Shown in pieces: positions 1,935 to 58,354 of a stretch of 64,000 nt of DNA (its first letter is position 1; each line of letters begins with the position of its first letter). The translations under genes and the position numbers were made by a program. Under the pieces are notes generated by a model. The model saw nothing but the letters and a program-made list of their open reading frames with translations, was not told the DNA's origin and ran no database searches. Source of the DNA: an uncultured virus (IMG/VR IMGVR_UViG_3300032093_000026) (Duplodnaviria > Heunggongvirae > Uroviricota > Caudoviricetes); IMG/VR virus record IMGVR_UViG_3300032093_000026, one strand, 5' to 3'.

Positions 1935-4900
1935 TACCTTGGAGATTTCAAAAGTTTTTGATTCGATAACTTTAATATATATTTTACATCGCCACTATTA
2001 AACTTTCTCATAAACACTCTATTCACATGATGTCTAAATTTCTTACGTTCAATTACTGATTTATTATAATTAACATATAATGGATTAATTGTATATACAT
2101 AGCCATTAGCTGATGTATTAAACATAGGGATGTTTACAGGATTATACTCACCTCTATTATTTGTTATATCCCAAAATTGATTAAATCTATATTTATTTTC
2201 TTCTTTAGAAAATTGAATAGATATTGAATTAGGTGATGTATTAATCCTTGGATATGTAAGCATACCTAACGGATCGTTTTTTGATTTTAAAAAAAGCTGT
2301 AGCAATCCTGAAATTTGTTCTGAATTATAAACAACAGCTTGATCAAAATTATCATCTAAAACATGAAATTTATCTTTACAATTATTATGATATTTATACG
2401 CCTCAAGTAAATATTCAACACTTCTTACTGTGTTCACTTGTTGACCTGTCGCTGATATAAATTCAACTTCAAATGGATACGATACACCATAAAAATTACA
2501 ATAGCTATTACATGTAGTATTATGATACCAAAGCGTATTATTCTTAGCTGTTAAAAAATGATTTTTTGTTGGTATTACAAAAGTAGGTACCCAATCATGA
2601 AAACTTATCCACGCTTCAGCTTTTGTATCATAACTAGCCGTCCAACTTGCATCTTCAAAATACGTTGTATTTGTAAGTGCAATTTGCGTAGTGGCATTTA
2701 AATAAAAATTACCATCTAAATCATATGGTTCACCTGTATCAGGATGTTGGTATGTTAAAGTAACTTTAGGTCTAAAGTCTCTTTTGGAAAGATACAAAAC
2801 TTCTGTGACATTATCATATATCATTGTAATACCAACACCTCTTACTATATTATCATACAATGGATAATTAGGGAACTGTAGTAACAACTGAGATGGTAAG
2901 TACATAGAAAACCACCAACGCATACCTGTTGCTGATATTTCTTTCATTCTACCTGTATATTGAAAAACCTTACCTTGATTTTGACTTACCCAAAATACAC
3001 CTTTTGTTGTATTCACTGAAGCATATCTACTTTGATTTGATCCGTATTCAAAAGGTGCATCTGTGTTTACAATTGATTGTAATTGGTTTTGACCAGTTTC
3101 AAAAAGCTTACCATCACCAACAGTTATCTTTGCATTTGAACCATCAAGTTGTAACTCTTCCACACCCATAAATGACAAAGGACTTTCAGTTTGCATCATA
3201 AATAATGCACCTGTTTTATTTATAGGTTTTATAGATGTAACACGAGCTATAAATTCTTTATAGTTGTTTACCAAAAAAGCTCTCCAATTATCTTTCTTAC
3301 TATCTATTTGTTGAGGTAATGAATATATAACTTTATTTGCACTATACTTATAGCAATTTGCTGAAATAAAAGGATCATAATCTCTAGGTAAAACATTACC
3401 CCATGAGATATTACTATTGAATAGTTTTGAAACACTTAATGAGTAATCATATTTATAATAGTTTCCATTCTTTATAACATCACTTCTAAACATTCCATTA
3501 TAATCAGTAAATCTGTAAAGATCATAATGTCTCTTAGAAACCTCTATTTCCCAATCTCTATATGCAGTATTTACTTCTGATTCACAATAAAAAACTCTAA
3601 CACCTGAATTAAACAAATAAAAATAACCTCTTGCAACATAAAAAGTACCCATAAATATATCGTCCAATCTTCTAAAACTACCTGCTGTTTGCCAAAGTTG
3701 CCCATGAAGAAATTGTGTGTTTGCCCAGAATCTAGGCCATGGTACATTTGCATATTTTGTGTAATCAATATCTGAACCAGCTCCTTCAAATTCACCCATT
3801 AACCATGTATTAAAAAAGAACATTGTATTCTTTTCAGAGAAAGGATTTATGTATGTATCCCCACCAAATACTGTTTCAGTTGTTCTATATTTAATAATTG
3901 TTGCATTAGGTTGAGTTATATCTAATGTAAAAATACAATTAGAAATAGGTAGTTGTTTTACTGTTTCTAACTGACCATACTGACTTGGTAAAGCATACTT
4001 TAATGCACCATACCATGACGATATATTACTTTTAATTTGTGTTTCTAATTCTGAACGACCTGCACCATTTACTTCTGATTTAAGAAAACGACTGTTATCT
4101 GAAATTGTAGGATCAGCTATATCTGCAGCAGCAGTACCATTAGTTACATCAAGTACAACATATCTACTTCTAAATAAATTATTTATTTGATATTGTGTAT
4201 TAAATTGTTGTATACCATTCCCTACATAATATGCTGAATTGATTCTTCGTCTTTGATTACCAGCAATATTATTAGGTTTTATTTGATCATAAATACCGTA
4301 TGAATCATACTGACAAGAATATTGTCTATATGGTATTAAACCAATTATAAGTTTATAAAATTGCTCTTGAAGTGTCATTTGTTGATAAACAAATAAAATA
4401 AGTTGTAGAGCAACATTATAACCATTGATAGCATCATTTGCAAGATTTCTTTCTTTTGTTGTAATAGATGAGCTTGTAGCATTATCATCACCATCAATGT
4501 TCCAAAAACCTTCACCTGTTTGTGGTGTACTAATTGCACCTCCACCTATTTGATTACTAAACGTAGTAAAAGATCCATATACTTGTGCTTGCAATCCAAA
4601 ATTACCACCACTAAGAGCATCACCTTTAATTTCTAAAGGTTTTTGATGACCATAATTTACATCATAACGCTTCTTTAAAAATATATTTTGATTAATATTT
4701 ACTTCATTATCATTAGCAAAATTCCAATCAAAATCAGGACCATGTTTACCAGCTAATGCAGTAAATAAACTAGTAACTCCTACAAAACGTGATAATAGTG
4801 TAATAAAATCACTTAAAAAATCAGAAATAAATTTAAACTTAGGATGCTTGTACGGTATCTTAAATTGACCATAAGCATTACCATGATGTTCTGAATATAT

Positions 4901-50059: not shown

Positions 50060-50289
50060 ATATGTTTGGTTTTACGTTTTGACTCGTGATAATTACTGTA
50101 GTTAATATGCTTGCTTTTGTTAGAAGATCTCTCTAATTCCATAGCAGCCATTCTATAAGCTAGCCCGTCTCTTACATCTATTACAGGAACCCCCACCTCT
50201 TGATCAAACCTATCTTTAACTACTCTGTAATGAGACAAAAGATCTTCTCCTGCGTCATCTTTTAAATACCTTAATTCCATTTGATTCAT
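50056..50289 (-). CDS. Hypothetical protein, first gene of the late arm
   Basis: ATG abuts the late-promoter motif. Confidence 0.5.
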   Translation of the reverse strand: MNQMELRYLKDDAGEDLLSHYRVVKDRFDQEVGVPVIDVRDGLAYRMAAMELERSSNKSKHINYSNYHESKRKTKHI

Positions 50290-50493
50290 AATATAATATA
50301 CTTTAAATGTTTAAACTTTCCAAATTTATTTAGAATACCTCAATTAAATTTTTTGATTTTTACACATGTTGTGTATAACCCCCCACTACTATATTAGAGT
50401 GTGTTGTGGGGTATTGATGGTTTGACCCCTACTTCGTTTGGGGGATATGGTGTACCCCGATGTTACACCACTTAATTCTTAAATCGTAATGTT

Positions 50494-50790
50494 ATGACAG
50501 CGAAAGTTTTTGGTGCAAAGATTGTTTCCATCCTTGAAGAAGTAAAGACTAAATCCAATGGTAAGCAGTACTTGACAGCAACAGTTGAGTTTACTGATGG
50601 CCCACTCGTGGGCAAGACTTACTTTGCTCAACGCACTTTGGGAGAGAACAAGTCTGCTATTGCAGTCGGTCAAAATGTGCGTGCTATTCTTGAAATCGTT
50701 GAGAGAGACGGTGTGAAAAGACCGTTCTTCGAGATTTCTACTAGCATCGTGGATGATGCAGACAGCTTGATGGCGTTGCTTGGTCAGTAA
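50494..50790 (+). CDS. OB-fold-like small protein
   Basis: 98 aa; KTKSNGKQYL beta-rich pattern, acidic tail and its own terminator. Confidence 0.5.
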   Translation: MTAKVFGAKIVSILEEVKTKSNGKQYLTATVEFTDGPLVGKTYFAQRTLGENKSAIAVGQNVRAILEIVERDGVKRPFFEISTSIVDDADSLMALLGQ

Positions 50791-50809
50791 TGTGACCATA
50801 GCATCGTAA

Positions 50810-50845
50810 CAACACACACGCATACTGCGTGTGTGTTTTTTTTAT
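50810..50845 (+). terminator. Intrinsic terminator
   Basis: AACACACACGCA-TAC-TGCGTGTGTGTT followed by a T-tract. Confidence 0.8.
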
Positions 50846-51159
50846 TTGTGCGTACAGTTTCTCAGATCATATTTTTTTTAATTGTTTATACTGTTTCTCT
50901 GTTCATATATTAATCCTTAGTGAATTATGTTAGCAACTATTCTTGCTGACGGAACTGTTACTATTGTTAAGACTGTTAAAGACTTAATAGTATTGGCAGA
51001 AGAGACACGCAATGCGTGATCTCTAACGCAGTTATGCTTCATCTGCGTTGCGTCATACGACCAAAAAGCAATTTGATATTATTTGTGTGTGTTTGTTTTA
51101 TTGACAGACACACACTTTACTTTTTTTAACCTGCGTATAATGCTCACATTTATTTATTT

Positions 51160-51453
51160 GTGTGGGCATTAGATCGCTATAAATCTTATGTTATGGTTCT
51201 AATTAAACCTGGTACTAAGTGTTTAGAATCTGCTAGTGAATACAAGTATTACTTAGCAGTTAGTTGTGATCAACTGTGGGTTATGGGTAGAGAGAATGGA
51301 GAGTATGTGTTGCTTGAACAGATTGTAATAGGTGTTAGTTATGACGCTTATTTAGTTGCTTGCACTGATGAGGATGCGTTTCTTGATTCTATTACTATTA
51401 TCAAGGACTATATTCTTAGTGGTCGTAATGCACTGAACTTGTTAGACATTTAA
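51160..51453 (+). CDS. Hypothetical protein
   Basis: ORF track; start uncertain. Confidence 0.45.
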   Translation: MWALDRYKSYVMVLIKPGTKCLESASEYKYYLAVSCDQLWVMGRENGEYVLLEQIVIGVSYDAYLVACTDEDAFLDSITIIKDYILSGRNALNLLDI

Positions 51454-51613
51454 ATAATACAAACCCAAGTGGTACAGGGGGTAACTCTCTGCAGAGAGAA
51501 ATAGTAGTGCTCGCGACACTATGGCCACACTTGACTAATAAGTAAAAATTCGTAGAAAGGCGTGTGATTAGTCCACACGCTTTTTAATTTTGTAACCAAT
51601 TAAACTTGTATAT

Positions 51614-51811
51614 ATGAAACAGAACTTCTTGTTAATTTATGCTATTGTATTGTTTGTTATATCATCTGCAGTGCTGTATTTAGGTGCTGATTCAGGGTTA
51701 TTAGTTGATACTATTAACCTATGTATTATAGGTGGTATGACTCTTTTAGGTTATGTTGGTTCATTTTTAGCCTATTTAGGTTATCGTGAACAATTAAAAG
51801 AATCTCAATAA
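51614..51811 (+). CDS. Small two-TM membrane protein
   Basis: Two hydrophobic helices. Confidence 0.6.
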   Translation: MKQNFLLIYAIVLFVISSAVLYLGADSGLLVDTINLCIIGGMTLLGYVGSFLAYLGYREQLKESQ

Positions 51812-51974
51812 GAGAGTAACTCTTTGCACAGTTGTAGTTGGTTATATCCTTCTAGAGGGGTATAATCTGTAAACCTACTGTCACTTAGATGACAGCTTGT
51901 AAAACATCGCCAAAGGTGTGGGGCTACAACTTGTGCTTTGAGATTAATTAGTAACCAATTAAATCATATATATT

Positions 51975-52166
51975 ATGAAAATGTCTATTAAAGAGTTAAA
52001 TGAAATACTCTATTGTGTTGGTAAAGTTAATATGATTGAACCTAACAGCCCGTTCAAAGATGTTAGAGATGGTGTTGTTAATAAGATTACCGACAAGCTT
52101 AATGCTTATGTAATGGATGAAATGCGTAAACAGGGTTTACTTCCTGTGTCTGAAGAATGTTTTTAG
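51975..52166 (+). CDS. Hypothetical protein
   Basis: 63 aa, followed by the hairpin GAACTAGGTGTA-GCAA-TACATCTAGTTC. Confidence 0.55.
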   Translation: MKMSIKELNEILYCVGKVNMIEPNSPFKDVRDGVVNKITDKLNAYVMDEMRKQGLLPVSEECF

Positions 52167-52289
52167 TTTATTAAAATATTGAACTAGGTGTAGCAATACA
52201 TCTAGTTCTTTATTCCTATGTTGTAAGGAATTAAAACCAAGATGCTGAACTTGGGAATAAGTGTTTACACTTATTTATATACAAAACAC

Positions 52290-52820
52290 AGCTGTTATTA
52301 GTAGTGCTTCATTGCGCGAGGAGTAACACAATGATGTGGGAACCACAAAGCCTTTAGCGAGGTCTAAAAGTTCCAGTGTTATAGATAAAGAGATGAGCCG
52401 CTAAGCTCATTGTAGTTGTCTATAAAGATAGGTCTTTAGGGAATAACCTATCAAAGCGAAAAATCCTACAATTAATAAAAATAATTGTCTGCAAAAGAGG
52501 GCGCAATCCCTTAATCCCATTCATACAGGTTAGTAGTGCCAAACATCTTGGGGTAAAACTCAAAGTGTCTCGCAAGAGGATATGTTGAAGCTGTTGCAGC
52601 AGTGGATATATATCATCCTGAAGTTTAGAGACTTGCTATCTCGTAGACAGATGGATAGAATAATCGTATGAAGACCCAAAAGGTCAAACAGTGTTAGTTC
52701 TGATGATGACTAACAGGCATAAGCATTGAACAGTTTAACAAGCTGGTTGACAGATTACATTACTAACTATAATGTAAGTCAATGCACAATAGCAATAGAT
52801 CTTGTCATTACGCTATTACT
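52290..52820 (+). ncRNA. Putative large structured ncRNA
   Basis: No ORF of 60 aa or more, higher GC than the flanks, many hairpins, and ends that can pair. Confidence 0.6.
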
Positions 52821-52898
52821 TTTTAATTCCAATAGGTGTATACACTTATTGTCTATTATATATATTTCCTTATTGCTTAACTATTAAAAATTTTTAAA

Positions 52899-53315
52899 AT
52901 GAAAAGATTTTATTTGGCTTTAACAATTGTAGTTGTAATATCTGCTGTAATAGCATTGATATTTATGACATTTAACTCTGACATTGACACAACTTGTGCT
53001 GTTAGAGATCGTTCTGATGTTTATTTAGATGACGAAGAATATCTGATCTATCCATCTGATAGTACAGATAAATGGAATATTGTTTTTCCATCTGATGATT
53101 TATATGTAGATCTTAAACCTGAACAAATTGCATTGTTCTTAAAATCAGGCGAAATACCAAAAGACACAACTTGGGTTATTTATCCTCAATGTGAATATCA
53201 ACTCACTATGGAAGATAATTATATTCTTATAGAAGATTTTGGTAGACCTATTGGTAAGATTCCATATAATAAAGCAGGCGATATTGGTAAACTATTATTA
53301 AAAGACAACGAATAA
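52899..53315 (+). CDS. Membrane-anchored hypothetical protein
   Basis: N-terminal TM helix. Confidence 0.6.
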   Translation: MKRFYLALTIVVVISAVIALIFMTFNSDIDTTCAVRDRSDVYLDDEEYLIYPSDSTDKWNIVFPSDDLYVDLKPEQIALFLKSGEIPKDTTWVIYPQCEYQLTMEDNYILIEDFGRPIGKIPYNKAGDIGKLLLKDNE

Positions 53316-53325
53316 AAACAATTTT

Positions 53326-53508
53326 ATGAGTAAAACAATTTTATTAGCTAGTTCAATTATACTAGCTATTTTAACGACAGTTATGATTTTCTTGTGCTTT
53401 TGTTTCTTAAACGCTAACAAAACTAGTTTAATTGTTATATGTACAATTAGTTTAGCAGGTTATTTAACAAGCGCACTTTATTTTCTTTCTTATAAAGAAC
53501 AAAAATAA
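53326..53508 (+). CDS. Small membrane protein
   Basis: Two TM segments. Confidence 0.5.
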   Translation: MSKTILLASSIILAILTTVMIFLCFCFLNANKTSLIVICTISLAGYLTSALYFLSYKEQK

Positions 53509-53514
53509 AAAGTT

Positions 53515-53682
53515 ATGAAATACCTTATTTTTCTTCCAATTTACTGGGTTTATATGTTATTGCTATTCATAATCGTAGGAATCATTTGCTTATGGGCATT
53601 TGATTTTAAGAAATTTGGACTTAGAACAAGAAATCTTAACCATGTTATTGGTTTTGGCTATTGGATAGGCGATAGATTATAA
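53515..53682 (+). CDS. Small membrane protein
   Basis: Not in the ORF track. MKYLIFLPIYWVYMLLLFIIVG..., 55 aa. Confidence 0.5.
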   Translation: MKYLIFLPIYWVYMLLLFIIVGIICLWAFDFKKFGLRTRNLNHVIGFGYWIGDRL

Positions 53683-53703
53683 AACTTAAAAATTTATTTG
53701 CAT

Positions 53704-53907
53704 ATGAAAATTAGTAAAAAACTAAAGGTGGCGCTGACATTAGCAGCGCTGCCTTTTTTGTTAGTCTGGGCTGGCTTTATTTTAACTGGTTTTGCTTTTA
53801 AACCACATGATATATTTCAATCAGGAGCATTTTGGGGTGGTTCAGTGATATATTGGACACTCTATATATGTATGATTGGTGTAATTATTGAAGAAATAAA
53901 ACAATAA
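53704..53907 (+). CDS. Small membrane protein
   Basis: Two TM segments; start MKISKK. Confidence 0.55.
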   Translation: MKISKKLKVALTLAALPFLLVWAGFILTGFAFKPHDIFQSGAFWGGSVIYWTLYICMIGVIIEEIKQ

Positions 53908-53912
53908 AGTAT

Positions 53913-54233
53913 ATGACTATACAAAACAAATTCTATCAAACCGTCTTAGATGATCTAGGACGGTTTGTAGGTTATAGGACAACCTTCAATGTTCCTAAAC
54001 AATTTGTATTAGATACCTATGATTATTATATGAACATAGGTCGTAATTACTTTGTGGAGATTAAAACTCCTAAAATGAAATCTGCTAGACATATGTATTG
54101 CAAAATGTATAAAGATTTCCACATTATGTTGGAAGATGTTAAATATCTGCAAATAGATGTTAACAGATGGAAAGAAAAGCAATTACAAGAAAAACGTAAA
54201 TTTTTAATTAATTCTTTAAGTGAAAAATTATGA
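53913..54233 (+). CDS. Hypothetical protein
   Basis: 106 aa. Confidence 0.55.
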   Translation: MTIQNKFYQTVLDDLGRFVGYRTTFNVPKQFVLDTYDYYMNIGRNYFVEIKTPKMKSARHMYCKMYKDFHIMLEDVKYLQIDVNRWKEKQLQEKRKFLINSLSEKL

Positions 54234-54355
54234 AAAAAATAGTATTATCTTTAATGGTTATTATCTTTTTAAGTTCTTGTATGAGATATAAAGTAGAGTC
54301 ATCATCGCCTAGTGGCTGTGGTGTTTGGTATCCTGCAGGAAAGTTTAACAAGTAA
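54230..54355 (+). CDS. Mini-lipoprotein
   Basis: MKKIVLSLMVIIFLSSC lipobox, 41 aa; not in the ORF track. Confidence 0.6.
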   Translation: MKKIVLSLMVIIFLSSCMRYKVESSSPSGCGVWYPAGKFNK

Positions 54356-54504
54356 GTACGAAGGTTGGGTGTCACCTGAGAGCTCGTAAGAGAGAAAACA
54401 CCAAATTCTTTTTAAACGGAGCTCATTTCTGCACCCTAAACATAGCATATATATGTATTAATACTATGTTTAGGGGGCATTTTTGAGCTATAAAATCATT
54501 TTTT

Positions 54505-54789
54505 ATGAGTAATGCAAATCAGTCTTTGGCACTAATGCTTGCCACAATCACACCGCGTGAAGTTCTTATTGAACAACTTGAAGAATCTATTTCTGAGTTT
54601 AAAGAAGCAAAACTTCTTAATAAATCAGAAGAAGAAATGGATGACTTGTTTAGATCTCTTGCTGTAAGAGCACATCTTATTACTATTAATGTAATGACCA
54701 AAGGTAGTTTGGAAGGTGTGCAACATATTATGCAAAGAATGGATGAACTTGAAAGACAAGACAATTTTTTCAAAAAAAGTACTAATTAG
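54505..54789 (+). CDS. Hypothetical protein
   Basis: 94 aa, helical. Confidence 0.55.
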   Translation: MSNANQSLALMLATITPREVLIEQLEESISEFKEAKLLNKSEEEMDDLFRSLAVRAHLITINVMTKGSLEGVQHIMQRMDELERQDNFFKKSTN

Positions 54790-54791
54790 TT

Positions 54792-54941
54792 ATGAAAAAG
54801 CTTTTATTGTTTCTTTTAGTTATTGTTTCTTTTTCTTCTTGCTTACGTGTAAGTTATCCCAGAAATAGTAGTAAGGGCTACGGCTGCAAAGGCAAAGAAA
54901 GCTGGAAACATATGGAAAAACGTATTAATAAACCTTATTAA
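54792..54941 (+). CDS. Mini-lipoprotein
   Basis: MKKLLLFLLVIVSFSSC lipobox, 49 aa; not in the ORF track. Confidence 0.6.
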   Translation: MKKLLLFLLVIVSFSSCLRVSYPRNSSKGYGCKGKESWKHMEKRINKPY

Positions 54942-54951
54942 TTTATTTATT

Positions 54952-55143
54952 ATGATTAATTTATCAAAAAATGATAATCCAAACTATTTTGATTTATCTA
55001 AAGATGATAATCAGTTAGAACCACCACCAGCTCAAGTTAATCTTGAGAATGGTAAGTCAATGTGGGTTATAGATGGTTATCGTATTTGGGCTAAGTCTTA
55101 TAAAGAAGCACTTGAATTGCTTCCACTTATTGAATCATTTTAA
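54952..55143 (+). CDS. Hypothetical protein
   Basis: 63 aa. Confidence 0.55.
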   Translation: MINLSKNDNPNYFDLSKDDNQLEPPPAQVNLENGKSMWVIDGYRIWAKSYKEALELLPLIESF

Positions 55144-55144
55144 A

Positions 55145-55345
55145 ATGTTTTCTTATATGAAAAATAAGATAAGAACAATTCTTTTTGGAGAAAGAATAAA
55201 GGGGGAGAAACTTCCCCCTTTAAAACCATTAAAAGAAAGACCAATGAATGAAAAAGATTTCTTTAAATGGTGTAATGAACTAAATGTTAGTTCACAGTAT
55301 GGTAGACAAAATGTTCATATAGATAATCTTAAAATCAATGGTTAA
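55145..55345 (+). CDS. Hypothetical protein
   Basis: Start shortened to the ATG after the upstream stop. Confidence 0.45.
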   Translation: MFSYMKNKIRTILFGERIKGEKLPPLKPLKERPMNEKDFFKWCNELNVSSQYGRQNVHIDNLKING

Positions 55346-55901
55346 AACTACTTATGAATCATCATTTCACAAAAAAGTAGTTCAAAACATTGTTTTTAAA
55401 GATTTTAAAATGCGTAAGTTTAAAAAACTTATTGGTTTAGCAGGTCCAAATATATCTAGTTATTTACTTTTTATAAAGAAAATGGGAATTAAACAAGCAC
55501 ATATATATGAAAATAATAATGAGCAAATTATTAATCAAGTGCTTGATTTTAAACCTATTATACCTACAACTGTAATATTTGAAGATATATTAAATGCGCC
55601 AGTTAAAGATGATACAATATATGATTTAGATTTTTGTTGTAGCATTTTAAACGCTAGAGAGCAAATTAAAAAGTTTAAAAACAATGCGATAATTACTTTA
55701 TCAATTAGACCTTTTGGTTTGAAAAAAACAATTAATGAATTTTGTAAGCTTATTAGTAAAAATAAAACGGTAATTAATTATAATACCAAGATAACTAATA
55801 GTTACAAAATGCATTTAATTATTCTTAGTAACAAAAAAATCTACGAGTGTTATCAGTATCGTGATAGCACATCAATGTTAACAATTAAACCTCAATTTTA
55901 A
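55338..55901 (+). CDS. Possible divergent SAM-methyltransferase-fold protein
   Basis: LIGLAGP, IYE, EDI and YDLDFC spaced as in a Rossmann MTase. Confidence 0.35.
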   Translation: MVKTTYESSFHKKVVQNIVFKDFKMRKFKKLIGLAGPNISSYLLFIKKMGIKQAHIYENNNEQIINQVLDFKPIIPTTVIFEDILNAPVKDDTIYDLDFCCSILNAREQIKKFKNNAIITLSIRPFGLKKTINEFCKLISKNKTVINYNTKITNSYKMHLIILSNKKIYECYQYRDSTSMLTIKPQF

Positions 55902-55910
55902 ATTAAAAAA

Positions 55911-56207
55911 ATGGCAACTAAATTAAAATTTTATACAAGTAGAGAAATTGCACACTTAAAAAGTATTGCAAACTACCCAACTAAGCAACAAAAGATTGCA
56001 GCATTAAAACAATTTTCAGAAAAATTTGAAAGATCTTATAATGCTGTTTATATTAAATATCTCACTTTAACAAAACGTATAAATAACAAAACTGACAAAA
56101 GGTTAGTTAATAGATTATCTGTTAAAAAGGGTCAATTTAAAATACCTATTGAAAGTTGGAATATTAATAATGAAGATGGTAAATTATATTTTACTGTTAA
56201 CTTCTAA
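55911..56207 (+). CDS. Myb/HTH-like DNA-binding protein
   Basis: YTSREIAHLK...FERSYNAVYIK. Confidence 0.4.
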   Translation: MATKLKFYTSREIAHLKSIANYPTKQQKIAALKQFSEKFERSYNAVYIKYLTLTKRINNKTDKRLVNRLSVKKGQFKIPIESWNINNEDGKLYFTVNF

Positions 56208-56472
56208 AGAAGCTGAGCTAGCTATTGCTAGATGGGTACATCCTTACCCTAAGCCATTGCAACTTAGGACTGATCAACCATGGGTGTGTGCTACGACAGG
56301 ATTCTAGCTAATCAGGGATGAACACCCTGTAATGGTGGATATTCAATCACTCCCAAGCCTGGGCTGCATTTATGCGTATACTACCATATGTAGAGATTTA
56401 ATCTGCTACAATTGACTAGTTACTGGGTATCACAAGAGGTGGGTTAAGCCTCTTATTTTTTAACTTTGTTGT

Positions 56473-56748
56473 ATGAGTAGAATTGAAAAAGGTTTTGGGA
56501 TGGTAACATATGATGTTATGCGAGATCCTGAAATAAGCTTAAGAGAAAAAGCAATATATTCTTATTTATGTACATATGCTAATAGTAAAACTAATGAGCT
56601 ATATGTAGGAATAAATAGAATTGCTGCAGAATGTGGAGTGGATCATTCTACAATTAAGAGAATCATCAAATCTCTAAAAGATAAAGGAATTATATCAAGA
56701 ACATTAAGAGGTAATCTTAACAGTTCTATAACAGTTATATTAAAATAA
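56473..56748 (+). CDS. Winged-HTH protein (replication-initiator-like HTH_36)
   Basis: EKAIYSYL...IAAECGVDHSTIKRIIKSLKDKGII. Confidence 0.75.
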   Translation: MSRIEKGFGMVTYDVMRDPEISLREKAIYSYLCTYANSKTNELYVGINRIAAECGVDHSTIKRIIKSLKDKGIISRTLRGNLNSSITVILK

Positions 56749-57002
56749 TTGTTAGAAGGCCCCAATATAATATCCAGATAATGTTTTGTAACGATTATTT
56801 GAGCTATTATAAGTGGATCAGGCCTTCTTAGTTATTGTCTGATGTTGAGAGCCTATAGTGTATTGACGTGACGCCACGGATGTACTATGACCAGTTAGTA
56901 GTGTCCTTGACATGATCATAATAGGCCTGGGAAAACACGAAGACTCAGTAGTAATGTGATCCTCCGCAGATAACAAAGAACTATAGTCCTCAGCATAGAC
57001 AT

Positions 57003-57033
57003 TTTGTTTTTTATTAAAAGTTGCCTATATTTG
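57003..57033 (+). promoter_or_regulatory. Bacteroidota sigma70-type promoter
   Basis: TTTG-N19-TATATTTG upstream of the AP2-like gene and the RNA cluster. Confidence 0.6.
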
Positions 57034-57052
57034 ATACATAAAACCAATTTTT

Positions 57053-57202
57053 ATGTACAAGTATGTAACTCAAAACATTTGTAAGGAAGGTAGTTCCTAC
57101 AGAGTTCGTTATCAAAGAAATGGTAAACGCTATTCTAAATTTTTCTCTAAGCGTAAAGAAGCAATTGCTTATAGAAATAAAATGTTAGGAATGAGTTCTT
57201 AA
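57053..57202 (+). CDS. Stand-alone AP2-like DNA-binding miniprotein
   Basis: Not in the ORF track. MYKYVTQNICKEGSSYRVRYQRNGKRYSKFFSKRKEAIAYRNKM, 49 aa. Confidence 0.6.
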   Translation: MYKYVTQNICKEGSSYRVRYQRNGKRYSKFFSKRKEAIAYRNKMLGMSS

Positions 57203-57302
57203 ATTATTATTAGTACTAATATTTAATCACAATTCAAAACAATTAAAAAAAGTTTTGGTTAGTAAGTTATGATTAATGAAGGGGTTAGTACTAATTTTGG
57301 TT

Positions 57303-57393
57303 AGTCAAGTGGCGGAATGTAGACGCTGAACAGAAGTGCATCATCTCAGTTATGAGTAAGGCGCAACATGCAGGTTCAAATCCTGTCTTGACA
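57303..57393 (+). ncRNA. tRNA-like RNA without a canonical anticodon arm
   Basis: GTCAAG/CTTGAC acceptor, GCG-GAATGTAGA-CGC D-arm, GCAGG-TTCAAAT-CCTGT T-arm. Confidence 0.6.
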
Positions 57394-57509
57394 CAAAACA
57401 TTTGGATCATCGCCATCGTAAAGCATCACTGGAAGAGCTCCTATGGAGAAGTGAGATAGTCGAGTAAAACAGGAAACTGAAATTGATCCAATACGTTTTT
57501 TGAAATTAT

Positions 57510-57931
57510 GGGCCTGCCTGGTATTGACAGCAAAGAACAGGTAGTATCACATGCAAGGCCTGGCAGAGGTCAAACAATCTGTCAAACAATAAAAGACAAC
57601 TCTAACGTTGAGCTTTCTAATTACACTGTTGAGTCTCTGTTTGCAGAGCTTGAGTGTTCTGAGCTTGAATTAGCTTAATTAGACGGGTAGCTATACCTTG
57701 GAACAGAAAATAGTATATAGTCCCAAATTTCCTGGATTATTAGGACTTTAATAATATTAGAATCTAGGTGGTGGAGCTGTTCTAACCGCTGGTTAGTTCC
57801 TCATACGGTGCAAAAGTAAAGCTCATCCTTTACTTTAGTACAATAGTTGTCAAGCTATCTCTTGACTAAGCATGTAAGAATGGTATTACAGGTGATTTGT
57901 TTGGACAGGGGTTCGACTCCCCTCAGGTCCA
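57510..57931 (+). ncRNA. ssrA: tmRNA
   Basis: GGGCCTG/CAGGTCC-A acceptor with G3:U70, 5' GGTATTGAC, CATGC/GCATG helix, 3' GGAC-AGGGG-TTCGACT-CCCCT, and a tag ORF at 57595-57678. Confidence 0.92.
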
Positions 57932-58003
57932 CTTAATTTTCATATAGCAAGCAAGGTATGTCCTGATGTTTCTACATTGGGGCTTTTATTTTAATTTTAT
58001 TTT

Positions 58004-58354
58004 ATGAAAAATAAAAAATATCTAGAAGAAGATAAGCCTGTAAGTAAACCAGGTAAAAAAAAATCCAAAGAATGGATTGTAGAATATAAGTGGAAGTCAT
58101 TAGAAGAATATAATAAATACCCTAAGAAATGGTATAGATCTGATGTATATTCAGAAGAGTGGAGATCTATTGCATATAGTAATAAATTCCATACATCTAA
58201 GTCTGCTATACAATCAATAGATCAATTTATAAAAGTTGCAAAAGCTTATCATAAAAATGATCTTATGACGGGATGGTATGATGACAAATTTGGTAAAGAT
58301 TATAGAGTGAGAAATCTCAAGACAGGAGAAACAATTAATTATTTAAATGATTAA
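58004..58354 (+). CDS. Hypothetical protein
   Basis: 116 aa. Confidence 0.55.
   Translation: MKNKKYLEEDKPVSKPGKKKSKEWIVEYKWKSLEEYNKYPKKWYRSDVYSEEWRSIAYSNKFHTSKSAIQSIDQFIKVAKAYHKNDLMTGWYDDKFGKDYRVRNLKTGETINYLND

What the first reader, a model, noticed from the sequence alone, without database searches (positions are those of the whole stretch)
52290..52820. ~520-nt ornate noncoding RNA candidate
Seen: the longest ORF-free gap in a dense genome, with many helices (52393-52410, 52427-52452, 52498-52511, 52569-52578 with a GCAA loop, 52692-52715, 52747-52782) and possible end pairing of 52299-52306 with 52811-52818. Established: phages carry large structured RNAs of this size class (ROOL, GOLLD). 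I cannot assign it to a family, so it may be new.
Basis: partly seen in the sequence, partly recalled or inferred. Interest (0 to 1): 0.75.

Follow-up and report, generated by a model that had tools for sequence, protein, structure and literature searches.

The report
Abundant orphan noncoding RNA in phage
A lake-water crAss-like phage makes a roughly 600-base, strongly folding RNA that codes for no protein, is assembled at higher depth than the phage's own tmRNA in four lake RNA data sets, and resembles no catalogued RNA or any sequence in related phages, so its job is unknown.

Summary
The flagged gap is real, and it is a transcribed noncoding RNA gene. Window 52167-52898 has stops of all three kinds in all six frames. 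No Pfam or PHROG remnant was found in 11 reading-frame pieces. No Rfam match scored better than E 0.6.

Contigs from four freshwater metatranscriptomes, from four studies, each cover about 52178/52207 to 52803/52821. In each run this is the deepest contig of an 8-kb stretch, 2.5-10 times deeper than the phage tmRNA, while the downstream gene has depth 0-1.5.

The + strand folds far better than shuffles (z -5.8). Nine coding controls gave +1.6 to -2.5. Its proposed end pairing is not (p 0.002). The true 5' end lies 85-110 nt upstream of 52290.

No diverged homologue was found in 80 relatives' loci, five near-complete relative genomes, IMG/VR, JGI metagenomes, GTDB genomes or GenBank phages. Covariation therefore cannot be tested.

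The closest analogue is the pair of persistent early long noncoding RNAs of Cellulophaga phage phi14:2. Function is inferred only: probably a trans-acting folded RNA.

The parts
52178..52824 (+). Outer limits of the abundant noncoding transcript. The observed contig ends are 52178, 52192 and 52207 on the 5' side and 52803, 52813, 52814 and 52821 on the 3' side.
   Evidence: table 8: X17 52178-52821, X19 52192-52814, X14 52207-52803 (library-adapter letters directly at both ends, table 7) and X10 51868-52813. All four have 0 other letters. Fold z is -5.8.
52181..52208 (+). 5' hairpin with a 12-bp stem and a GCAA tetraloop, followed by UUUAUU. It is either the terminator of the upstream ORF or a protective or processing hairpin at the RNA's 5' end.
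   Evidence: Terminator-like site; pair probability 0.99. The X14 contig starts at 52207, the penultimate base of the stem's 3' arm; X17 includes the hairpin.
52191..52206 (+). First copy of the 16-nt boundary motif TAGCAATAsATCTwGT.
   Evidence: the only two exact matches in the window are 52191-52206 and 52790-52805.
52256..52275 (+). First copy of the 20-nt palindromic repeat (9-bp hairpin). It lies inside the transcript.
   Evidence: two sites in 64 kb, 0.09 expected. Pair probability 0.98.
52380..52424 (+). Long hairpin: 9 bp, an internal loop, then 7 bp (52392-52411).
   Evidence: p 0.98 and 0.99.
52427..52512 (+). Three successive hairpins: 52427-52452, 52468-52488 and 52497-52512.
   Evidence: p 0.92-0.95; (this half alone gives z -3.37).
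52520..52672 (+). Multi-branch domain closed by the 7-bp helix 52520-52526/52666-52672. It holds five inner stem-loops, including the GCAA-capped 52569-52578.
   Evidence: The same fold appears in isolation and in the full transcript, with closing-helix p 0.92; in isolation z is -2.23.
52673..52783 (+). 3' hairpins: 52673-52685, 52692-52715, 52731-52745 and 52746-52783.
   Evidence: p 0.71-0.99.
52786..52824 (+). 3' end region: a weak hairpin (AAUAGC/GCUAUU) with the second boundary-motif copy (52790-52805) and an AGAUCU palindrome in its loop, then U5 at 52820-52824. The contigs stop here.
   Evidence: Sequence; contig ends at 52803-52821; motif. The terminator function is inferred. The scan did not call this site.
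52831..52850 (+). Second copy of the 20-nt palindrome, just beyond the RNA's 3' end and 48 nt before the next ATG. Its single difference in the stem keeps pairing as G-U on the + strand only.
51975..52166 (+). Upstream 63-aa orphan ORF, assembled together with the RNA in one run only.
   Evidence: the X10 contig spans 51868-52813. In X14 this region has depth 13 against 382; in X17 and X19 it has 0. No Pfam or PHROG hit.
52899..53315 (+). Downstream 138-aa orphan ORF, almost uncovered in the RNA runs.
   Evidence: bin 52870-53136 has depth 0, 1.49, 0 and 0. No family hit.

Best explanation
Window positions ~52178/52207 to ~52803/52821 (+ strand) are a free-standing noncoding RNA gene in the early, rightward-transcribed arm of a freshwater crAss-like phage.

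Shown:
- It codes for nothing.
- It is present in RNA libraries as one contig of about 600-645 nt, at much higher depth than its neighbours and than the phage tmRNA.
- It folds into about 20 mostly local helices, including a 150-nt multi-branch domain, far better than shuffled or coding sequence.

Inferred:
- It is made with the early genes, in part as a read-through of the upstream 63-aa ORF.
- Its ends are set at two copies of a repeated boundary module, by cleavage or termination.
- It accumulates because its helices and terminal hairpins protect it from nucleases.
- It acts in trans as a folded particle that binds or sequesters a protein during takeover of the host. This would resemble the persistent early long noncoding RNAs of phage phi14:2, and is not the behaviour of an mRNA or a leader.

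My odds: a real, discrete, abundant noncoding RNA 0.85; a trans-acting protein-binding role about 0.35.
For: Noncoding:
- Stops of all kinds lie in all six frames.
- 0 of 11 stop-to-stop pieces hit Pfam, and none hit PHROGs below E 0.07.

Transcribed and discrete:
- 20 of the 21 listed runs hold the stretch or a part of it, and 8 of those are RNA runs.
- Six RNA runs hold 0.30-0.38 of the 2001-nt query, which is about the RNA's own share of it.

I laid 4 of the 8 RNA runs, from four studies, on 50200-58200:
- Contig depths are 536.7, 381.6, 45.8 and 34.1.
- The tmRNA bins in the same runs are 198-214, 101-141, 5.3-11.5 and 3.5-4.7.
- The next ORF has depth 0-1.5.
- X17 and X19 cover only 8 and 9 of 30 bins, so DNA carry-over does not explain the cover.

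Strand + (all weak):
- MFE is -176.0 on + against -158.8 on -.
- Adapter letters at the X14 contig ends are oriented so that the first mate reads the - strand. Adapter identity is recalled. One search's header notes that in most stranded libraries the first mate is antisense.
- A U5 run follows the 3' hairpin.
- The RNA is co-oriented with the flanking genes.

Structure: z is -5.8 against +1.6 to -2.5 for nine coding controls. Eighteen predicted helices have p >= 0.8.

Analogue: in the phi14:2 preprint (10.1101/2020.03.07.982082, passages read), two long early intergenic regions are transcribed above most genes and persist through infection.
Against: - No diverged homologue was found anywhere. 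There is therefore no covariation and no evidence of selection on the fold. Close relatives with 80-92% identical terminase lack the element.
- All RNA evidence comes from assembled contigs. These give one depth figure each and cannot show strand, true ends or a single molecule.
- The runs were picked because they hold this stretch, which biases its depth upwards relative to other genes.
- One run (X10) joins it to the upstream ORF, so it may be no more than a long 3' UTR.
- No promoter of its own was recognised.
- No partner protein is evident. Of 29 early ORFs, one has a firm Pfam hit (HTH_36) and one has two sub-threshold hits at E 0.005-0.006.
- No target complementarity longer than 13 nt exists in the window.
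Confidence: 0.55

Rival explanations
1. It is a stable by-product. The stretch is a gene-less cassette or spacer between two copies of a terminator/processing module. It is transcribed as the 3' tail of the upstream 63-aa ORF's mRNA and survives only because it is helix-rich. It has no function of its own.
For: - The X10 contig joins ORF 51975-52166 and the RNA.
- The RNA is bounded by a bipartite direct repeat. Local alignment of 52179-52281 with 52782-52862 scores 54.5, a score reached by 5 of 500 shuffles.
- The element is absent from every relative examined, as expected for dispensable DNA in a hypervariable early region.
Against: - In X14 its depth is about 30 times that of the ORF it would trail, and the ORF is not covered at all in X17 and X19.
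- A fold z of -5.8 is beyond all nine coding controls.
- G+C is raised above both flanks.
Confidence: 0.2
2. It is a cis-acting leader or attenuator. The long folded RNA is the 5' leader of the downstream genes (52899 onward). Its 3' hairpin with U5 is a conditional terminator, and the abundant species is the prematurely terminated leader.
For: - The RNA ends about 75 nt before the next ATG, and the downstream ORF has depth 0-1.5.
- The 3' segment has two competing predicted pairings: a local hairpin, and the long-range helix 52357-52366/52796-52805 at p 0.42.
Against: - 600 nt is several times the size of known bacterial leaders (recalled).
- No riboswitch, T-box or other cis-regulatory Rfam family matches.
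- The palindrome and a promoter-like site (52839-52866) lie between the RNA's end and the ORF, which suggests a separate start for that gene.
Confidence: 0.12
3. It is a decayed gene or foreign DNA remnant that is still transcribed.
For: - It is an orphan.
- Its G+C differs from the flanks.
- It is bounded by repeats that could be insertion scars.
Against: - No frame keeps more than 71 codons open stop-to-stop.
- 0 of 11 pieces match Pfam, and no PHROG hit falls below E 0.07.
- Decay would not produce a fold excess of z -5.8 with a strand asymmetry.
Confidence: 0.06
4. The transcript is from the - strand. It would be an antisense RNA or the mRNA of the 37-aa hydrophobic ORF 52407-52520.
For: - Contigs carry no strand information.
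- The - strand also folds better than shuffles, z -3.7.
- An ATG-started 37-aa ORF exists on the - strand.
Against: - The + strand is 17 kcal/mol more stable.
- The adapter orientation in X14 and the U-run after the 3' hairpin favour +.
- All neighbouring genes are on +.
- The second palindrome copy keeps pairing only on +, as a G-U pair.
Confidence: 0.05

Closest known systems
Early long noncoding RNAs of Cellulophaga crAss-like phage phi14:2 (g004-g005 and g005-g006 junctions; Drobysheva et al. preprint 10.1101/2020.03.07.982082, passages read)
   Same: - Both are in a crAss-like phage and sit as a long gene-free stretch in the early arm, co-oriented with the early genes.
- Both are in the 0.6-0.7 kb size class.
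- RNA level is above most protein genes.
- A phage tmRNA is also abundant. In phi14:2 the second stretch holds a tmRNA (Rfam 46.0 bits against a cut-off of 47, E 1.4e-16; ARAGORN call).
- Function is unknown in both.
   Different: - There is no sequence similarity. blastn and nhmmer of the candidate against phi14:2 2800-4700 found nothing significant. Covariance model R1 has no hit in L095.
- The phi14:2 stretch 2905-3589 shows no fold excess, z -0.32, against -5.8 here.
- Here the RNA lies 4.7 kb upstream of the tmRNA, not beside it.
- My mapping of g004-g006 onto the RefSeq coordinates is inferred. The paper's supplementary tables could not be seen.
ROOL and GOLLD (large ornate RNAs often carried by phages and prophages)
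   Same: Size class (the ROOL model has 574 positions), phage-borne, many helices, no known function.
   Different: - No match to any Rfam model at E <= 0.6 in 52100-52950 with permissive filters.
- These families are defined by wide conservation and covariation. This RNA has no relative at all.
- No tRNA lies next to it.
- I did not verify by a call that a GOLLD model is in the library. My recalled accession turned out to be another family.
Promoter-stem-loop bounded cassettes of T4-type phage hyperplastic regions (recalled, not read here)
   Same: A strain-specific unit in a hypervariable early region, bounded by similar short stem-loop-bearing regulatory modules.
   Different: The cassette holds no ORF. 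Only two copies of the module exist in 64 kb. Recombination at these modules is not shown.

Membership tests
ROOL (Rfam RF03087) | Match to the family covariance model at or near the gathering score (99.1 bits) | tested here: not met
   Searches list no ROOL match at gathering or at E <= 10. One search confirms the model is in the library.
GOLLD | Match to the Rfam covariance model | tested here: inconclusive
   No such match appears. I could not confirm by a call that the model is in the library; the accession I recalled was wrong.
Any Rfam 15 family (tmRNA, RNase P, 6S, group I/II introns, self-cleaving ribozymes, riboswitches, OLE, HEARO and others) | Covariance-model match | tested here: not met
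   the best matches in 52100-52950 are miRNA or plastid models at E 0.62-9.1, far below their gathering scores.
phi14:2-type early long noncoding RNA (a descriptive class, not a curated family) | Long gene-free stretch in the early arm, co-oriented with the early genes | tested here: met
phi14:2-type early long noncoding RNA | RNA level above most protein genes | tested here: met
   it is the deepest contig in the 8-kb stretch in 4 of 4 runs. Caveats: these are contigs, and the runs were picked with this stretch. Only 8 kb was laid, so late genes were not compared.
phi14:2-type early long noncoding RNA | Early onset and persistence through infection | not testable with these tools
   This needs a time course in a cultured host.
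phi14:2-type early long noncoding RNA | Sequence or structure homology to the phi14:2 RNAs | tested here: not met
IS200/IS605-type miniature element (hairpin-ended) | Further copies elsewhere, or a transposase or TnpB relative | tested here: not met
   The palindrome has two sites in the window and one chance site in IMG/VR. There are no other copies of the body.
Structured RNA in the strict sense | Compensatory base changes among homologues | not testable with these tools
   Only 100% identical copies were found (L001, L100, L106, L135).

The most novel reading that the evidence does not exclude
This is the founding member of an uncatalogued kind of large phage RNA. It would be a 0.6-kb particle cut out of the early transcript at a pair of repeated boundary motifs. 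The adapter-capped ends 52207 and 52803 sit at nearly the same place in the two motif copies. It would accumulate above the phage's tmRNA and act as an RNA-only assembly or protein trap during host takeover. Self-complementary loops such as AGAUCU could let it multimerise, as ROOL and GOLLD do. It evolves so fast, or is so mobile, that sequence searches see no relatives.
Probability: 0.12. Interest if true: 0.8.

Novelty: new variant of a known kind. Interest (0 to 1): 0.6.

Why it matters
crAss-like phages are among the most abundant viruses in guts, seas and lakes. In the one cultured model studied by RNA-seq, the most persistent early transcripts are long noncoding RNAs of unknown role.

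This window gives a second, independent case from environmental data. The RNA is a more convincing fold than the phi14:2 one. It is the deepest contig of the 8-kb early-arm stretch laid in four lake metatranscriptomes, and it has sharply bounded ends.

If such RNAs act in host takeover or counter-defence, this one offers a compact, well-delimited object for probing, pull-down and structural work. Its lack of relatives also shows that homology-based RNA discovery misses abundant phage RNAs.

Tried and rejected
Homologue hunt. Every search found either nothing or only 100% identical copies.
- blastn 'distant' against 50,697 GenBank phage records: no match.
- IMG/VR 28-mer: 1 locus, identical.
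- Flanking proteins in IMG/VR: only the same contig.
- nhmmer over 83 loci, including 80 terminase relatives: only the 3 identical loci.
- BLAST in five near-complete relative genomes: best E 0.018 over 17 nt.
- The nearest record, G001, lacks 48-60 kb altogether. G007 has the tmRNA but different early genes.
- JGI metagenome 18-mer: 16 loci, 2 real, both identical.
- GTDB genome 18-mer: 6 loci, 0 real. IMG/VR 16-mer: 55 loci, 1 real and identical.
- Palindrome pattern in IMG/VR: own contig plus 1 chance hit.
- Single-sequence covariance model R1 of 52517-52675: 0 of 5 genomes, and 0 of 27 loci other than the window itself.
- 401 genomes of the phylum of G009: one 27-nt chance match.
- This scan's own index: nothing.

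'Family A'. I rejected this as a structural counterpart. It is a conserved 400-700-nt gap in 14 relatives' loci. Its conserved core reads as an ATG-to-TAA small ORF of about 52 codons with third-position variation, and it has no match in the window.

Other negatives:
- Stop-codon recoding rejected.
- An internal duplication of the RNA rejected: 36 of 200 shuffles score as well.
- Antisense targets in the window: none longer than 13 nt, E 0.5.
- No sigma-70-type promoter found in front of 52178-52207.
- 52870-53136 and most of 53.9-56.0 kb are bare or nearly so in X14, X17 and X19. Lack of cover in contigs proves nothing by itself.

Full report
CONTEXT

The window is part of a crAss-like phage. 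PHROG profiles for crAss-type major head protein, portal and large terminase match ORFs on the - strand.
- Late and structural genes run leftward up to about 50290.
- From about 50490, small and almost entirely orphan ORFs run rightward.
- This arm also holds a phage tmRNA at 57510-57934 (79.3 bits; ARAGORN).
- The window's own assembly is not held.
- Identical copies of the region occur in three other contigs: L001, L100 and L106. L106 lies in a 127,938-base contig.

THE OBSERVATION

- 52167-52898 is free of ORFs of 60 aa or more.
- Every one of the six frames carries 12-28 stops of all three kinds. The stop-codon reassignment known in crAss-like phages (recalled) therefore cannot open it.
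- The longest stop-to-stop piece is 71 codons.
- Of 11 such pieces, none hits Pfam, and the best PHROG hit is E 0.07.
- G+C is 0.365-0.41 in the 200-nt windows from 52200 to 52699, against 0.25-0.31 downstream (52700-53299) and about 0.30-0.335 just upstream.
The proposed end pairing has probability 0.002.
- Folding is well beyond chance and beyond this genome's background. For 52178-52822 +, MFE is -176.0 against -145.4 +/- 5.2 for 25 dinucleotide shuffles (z -5.8).
- The - strand gives z -3.7, the tmRNA -1.9, and nine 645-nt coding controls on their sense strand +1.6 to -2.5.

TRANSCRIPTION

A search of public runs with 51500-53500 listed 21 runs.
- 20 hold the stretch or part of it, and 8 of those are RNA libraries, all freshwater metatranscriptomes.
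- Six of the RNA runs hold 0.30-0.38 of the query's words, about what the candidate alone would contribute.

I laid four of the eight (X10, X14, X17 and X19, from four studies) on 50200-58200. All four are kept as assembled contigs. Each depth is therefore one figure per contig, and strand, ends and single molecules are not directly shown.

In every run one contig with no differing letters covers the candidate:

| Run | Contig | Depth |
|---|---|---|
| X10 | 51868-52813 | 536.7 |
| X14 | 52207-52803 | 381.6 |
| X17 | 52178-52821 | 45.8 |
| X19 | 52192-52814 | 34.1 |

- In the same runs the tmRNA bins have 198-214, 101-141, 5.3-11.5 and 3.5-4.7.
- The bin over the next ORF (52870-53136) has 0, 1.49, 0 and 0.
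- X17 and X19 cover only 8 and 9 of 30 bins: the candidate, 56.1-56.6 kb, the tmRNA and, in X19, 50.5-50.8 kb. The cover is therefore not carried-over phage DNA.
- Caveat stated by the tool: the runs were found with this stretch, so its depth relative to other genes is biased upwards.

ENDS AND STRAND (weak inferences)

- The X14 contig carries loose letters directly before 52207 and behind 52803 (table 7). I recognise these, from memory, as the two Illumina library adapters.
- Adapters assembled onto a contig imply many short fragments ending exactly there, which points to natural RNA ends.
- Their orientation puts the first mate on the - strand. In the usual stranded protocols that means a + strand RNA.
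- The X17 contig continues beyond 52821 with 17 letters identical to 52730-52746. Such a go-back joint is what reverse-transcriptase template switching at a true RNA terminus gives. A tandem or circular 92-nt form cannot be excluded.
- A U5 run (52820-52824) follows a weak hairpin at 52786-52817.
- The + strand is 17 kcal/mol more stable than the - strand.
- The one difference between the stems of the two palindrome copies keeps pairing, as G-U, only on +.
- On the 5' side, X17 includes the 12-bp GCAA-capped hairpin 52181-52208, X14 starts at its penultimate base (52207), and X10 runs on through the upstream 63-aa ORF.
- The primary transcript may therefore start upstream and be cut. No sigma-70-type promoter was found in front of 52178-52207.

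ANATOMY

About 198 predicted pairs, 26 of them G-U, form mostly local hairpins:
- the 5' hairpin, two small hairpins and the palindrome (52181-52276);
- a less certain region (52287-52379);
- a 45-nt two-tier hairpin (52380-52424);
- three hairpins (52427-52512);
- a multi-branch domain, 52520-52672, closed by a 7-bp helix (p 0.92) with five inner stem-loops, which folds identically in isolation;
- four 3' hairpins (52673-52783).

The RNA is bounded by a bipartite direct repeat.
- A 16-nt motif sits at 52191-52206 and 52790-52805. These are the only two exact sites in 64 kb.
- A 20-nt palindrome sits at 52256-52275 and 52831-52850. These are its only two sites, with 0.09 expected.
- A gapped local alignment of 52179-52281 with 52782-52862 scores 54.5, reached by 5 of 500 shuffles.
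- The adapter-capped X14 ends fall within 3 nt of the same position in the two motif copies.
- Possible readings are cleavage at a repeated site, a duplicated terminator module, or a cassette-insertion scar. I cannot tell them apart.

RELATIVES

Every search for a diverged homologue failed.
- No match in 50,697 GenBank phage records.
- No match in 80 loci around terminases 76-100% identical to this phage's.
- No match in five 92-100% complete relative genomes.
- Four exact-word seeds from the RNA were run over IMG/VR, JGI metagenomes and GTDB genomes, giving 78 loci. Four are real, and all four are 100% identical.
- A covariance model of the multi-branch domain had no hit in the same five genomes, or in the 27 searched loci other than the window itself.
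- No real match in 401 genomes of one bacterial phylum.

Synteny with relatives holds up to the divergence point and breaks in the early arm. ORFs 51614 to 54789 have no tblastn match in any locus. The RNA therefore sits in a strain-specific block, and covariation cannot be tested.

A conserved 'gap' in 14 relatives that looked like a counterpart turned out to have a small ORF of about 52 codons as its core.

COMPARISON WITH WHAT IS KNOWN

No Rfam 15 family matches. At gathering threshold, only the tmRNA and a tRNA-Met are found in the whole window. With permissive filters, the best match in 52100-52950 is E 0.62. ROOL's model is in the library. My recalled GOLLD accession was wrong, so GOLLD's presence in the library is unverified.

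The closest described thing is in Cellulophaga phage phi14:2. The preprint by Drobysheva et al. (passages read) reports two long early intergenic regions that are transcribed rightward above most protein genes from the first time point and do not decline. It calls them long non-coding RNAs of undetermined function.
- In the RefSeq record these map, by my inference, to about 2905-3589 and 3911-4601.
- The second holds a tmRNA: Rfam 46.0 bits against a cut-off of 47, E 1.4e-16, and an ARAGORN call at 4031-4500.
- The first has no similarity to the candidate and no fold excess, z -0.32.

The candidate therefore behaves like the phi14:2 RNAs but is not their homologue.

HOW IT MOST LIKELY WORKS

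Shown: it is noncoding, abundant in RNA libraries, sharply bounded and unusually stable in its predicted fold.

Inferred: it is made with the early genes, trimmed or terminated at the repeated boundary module, and protected by its helices. It would act in trans as a folded particle that binds a protein, host or phage.

The rivals are an inert stable by-product, a giant leader or attenuator for the next gene, a transcribed gene remnant, and a - strand transcript. They are set out with their odds in the fields above. Nothing here identifies a partner or target.

VERDICT

This is a real, abundant, strongly folding orphan noncoding RNA, and a new variant of the 'abundant early long noncoding RNA of crAss-like phages'. 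Conservation, strand, exact ends and function remain open.

Noticed in passing
window 56102-56454: A second gene-free, G+C-rich (up to 0.44) stretch ending in a terminator-like hairpin at 56434-56454. It is covered by contigs in all four RNA runs, at contig depths of 5.6-17.6 in three runs and up to about 18 by bin in X10, and a variant strain is also present. It has no Rfam match and no fold excess (z -0.69).
   Followed up: partly
window 57303-57394: A tRNA-like element directly upstream of the tmRNA. It has acceptor, D and T arms, but 38 nt lie in place of the 18-position anticodon-arm stretch of the model. Its Rfam tRNA score is 24.5 bits, below the cut-off of 29, and ARAGORN does not call it.
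   Followed up: partly
window 57510-57934: The phage tmRNA has an unusually long predicted 27-residue tag. RNA contigs from X14 and X17 replace 57681-57895 with 212 other letters, so a variant tmRNA from a related phage is expressed in the same lakes (table 5).
   Followed up: no
L095 (phi14:2 NC_021806) 4031-4502: One of the two published 'long non-coding RNA' regions of phi14:2 holds a tmRNA: Rfam 46.0 bits against a cut-off of 47, E 1.4e-16, and ARAGORN tag GSSVQKLAMVA. The passages I read of the preprint do not say so.
   Followed up: partly
L045 3251-3916, L077 3060-3651, L069 3357-3885 and 11 more loci: Relatives carry a conserved early-arm segment, detected by an nhmmer profile in 14 loci. 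In the 11 of them that I aligned, its core is a small ORF of about 52 codons, below usual gene-calling length. It lies next to their tmRNA.
   Followed up: partly
window 50449-50837: ORF 50494-50790 (98 aa, no family) is unusually G+C-rich (0.43-0.475). It is open on both strands, is 87% conserved in L021 on the + frame, and ends in a strong terminator. It is well covered in RNA runs X10 and X14, whose contigs both start at 50449.
   Followed up: no
window 50836-50907: Two tandem 36-nt repeats (81% alike) lie just after that terminator, in the divergent control region.
   Followed up: no
window 51857-51929: In X14 (table 7, with differing letters in X10 as well), a roughly 70-nt module containing a perfect TATAAT (51861-51866) and a hairpin occurs in a contig piece whose flanks are unlike the window. 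A related phage therefore uses the same module in another context. The assembled depth in X10 jumps from 9 to 537 here.
   Followed up: no
window 52821 joined to 52730: The X17 RNA contig continues past 52821 with 17 letters identical to 52730-52746. This could be a template switch at a true RNA end, or a 92-nt tandem or circular form.
   Followed up: partly
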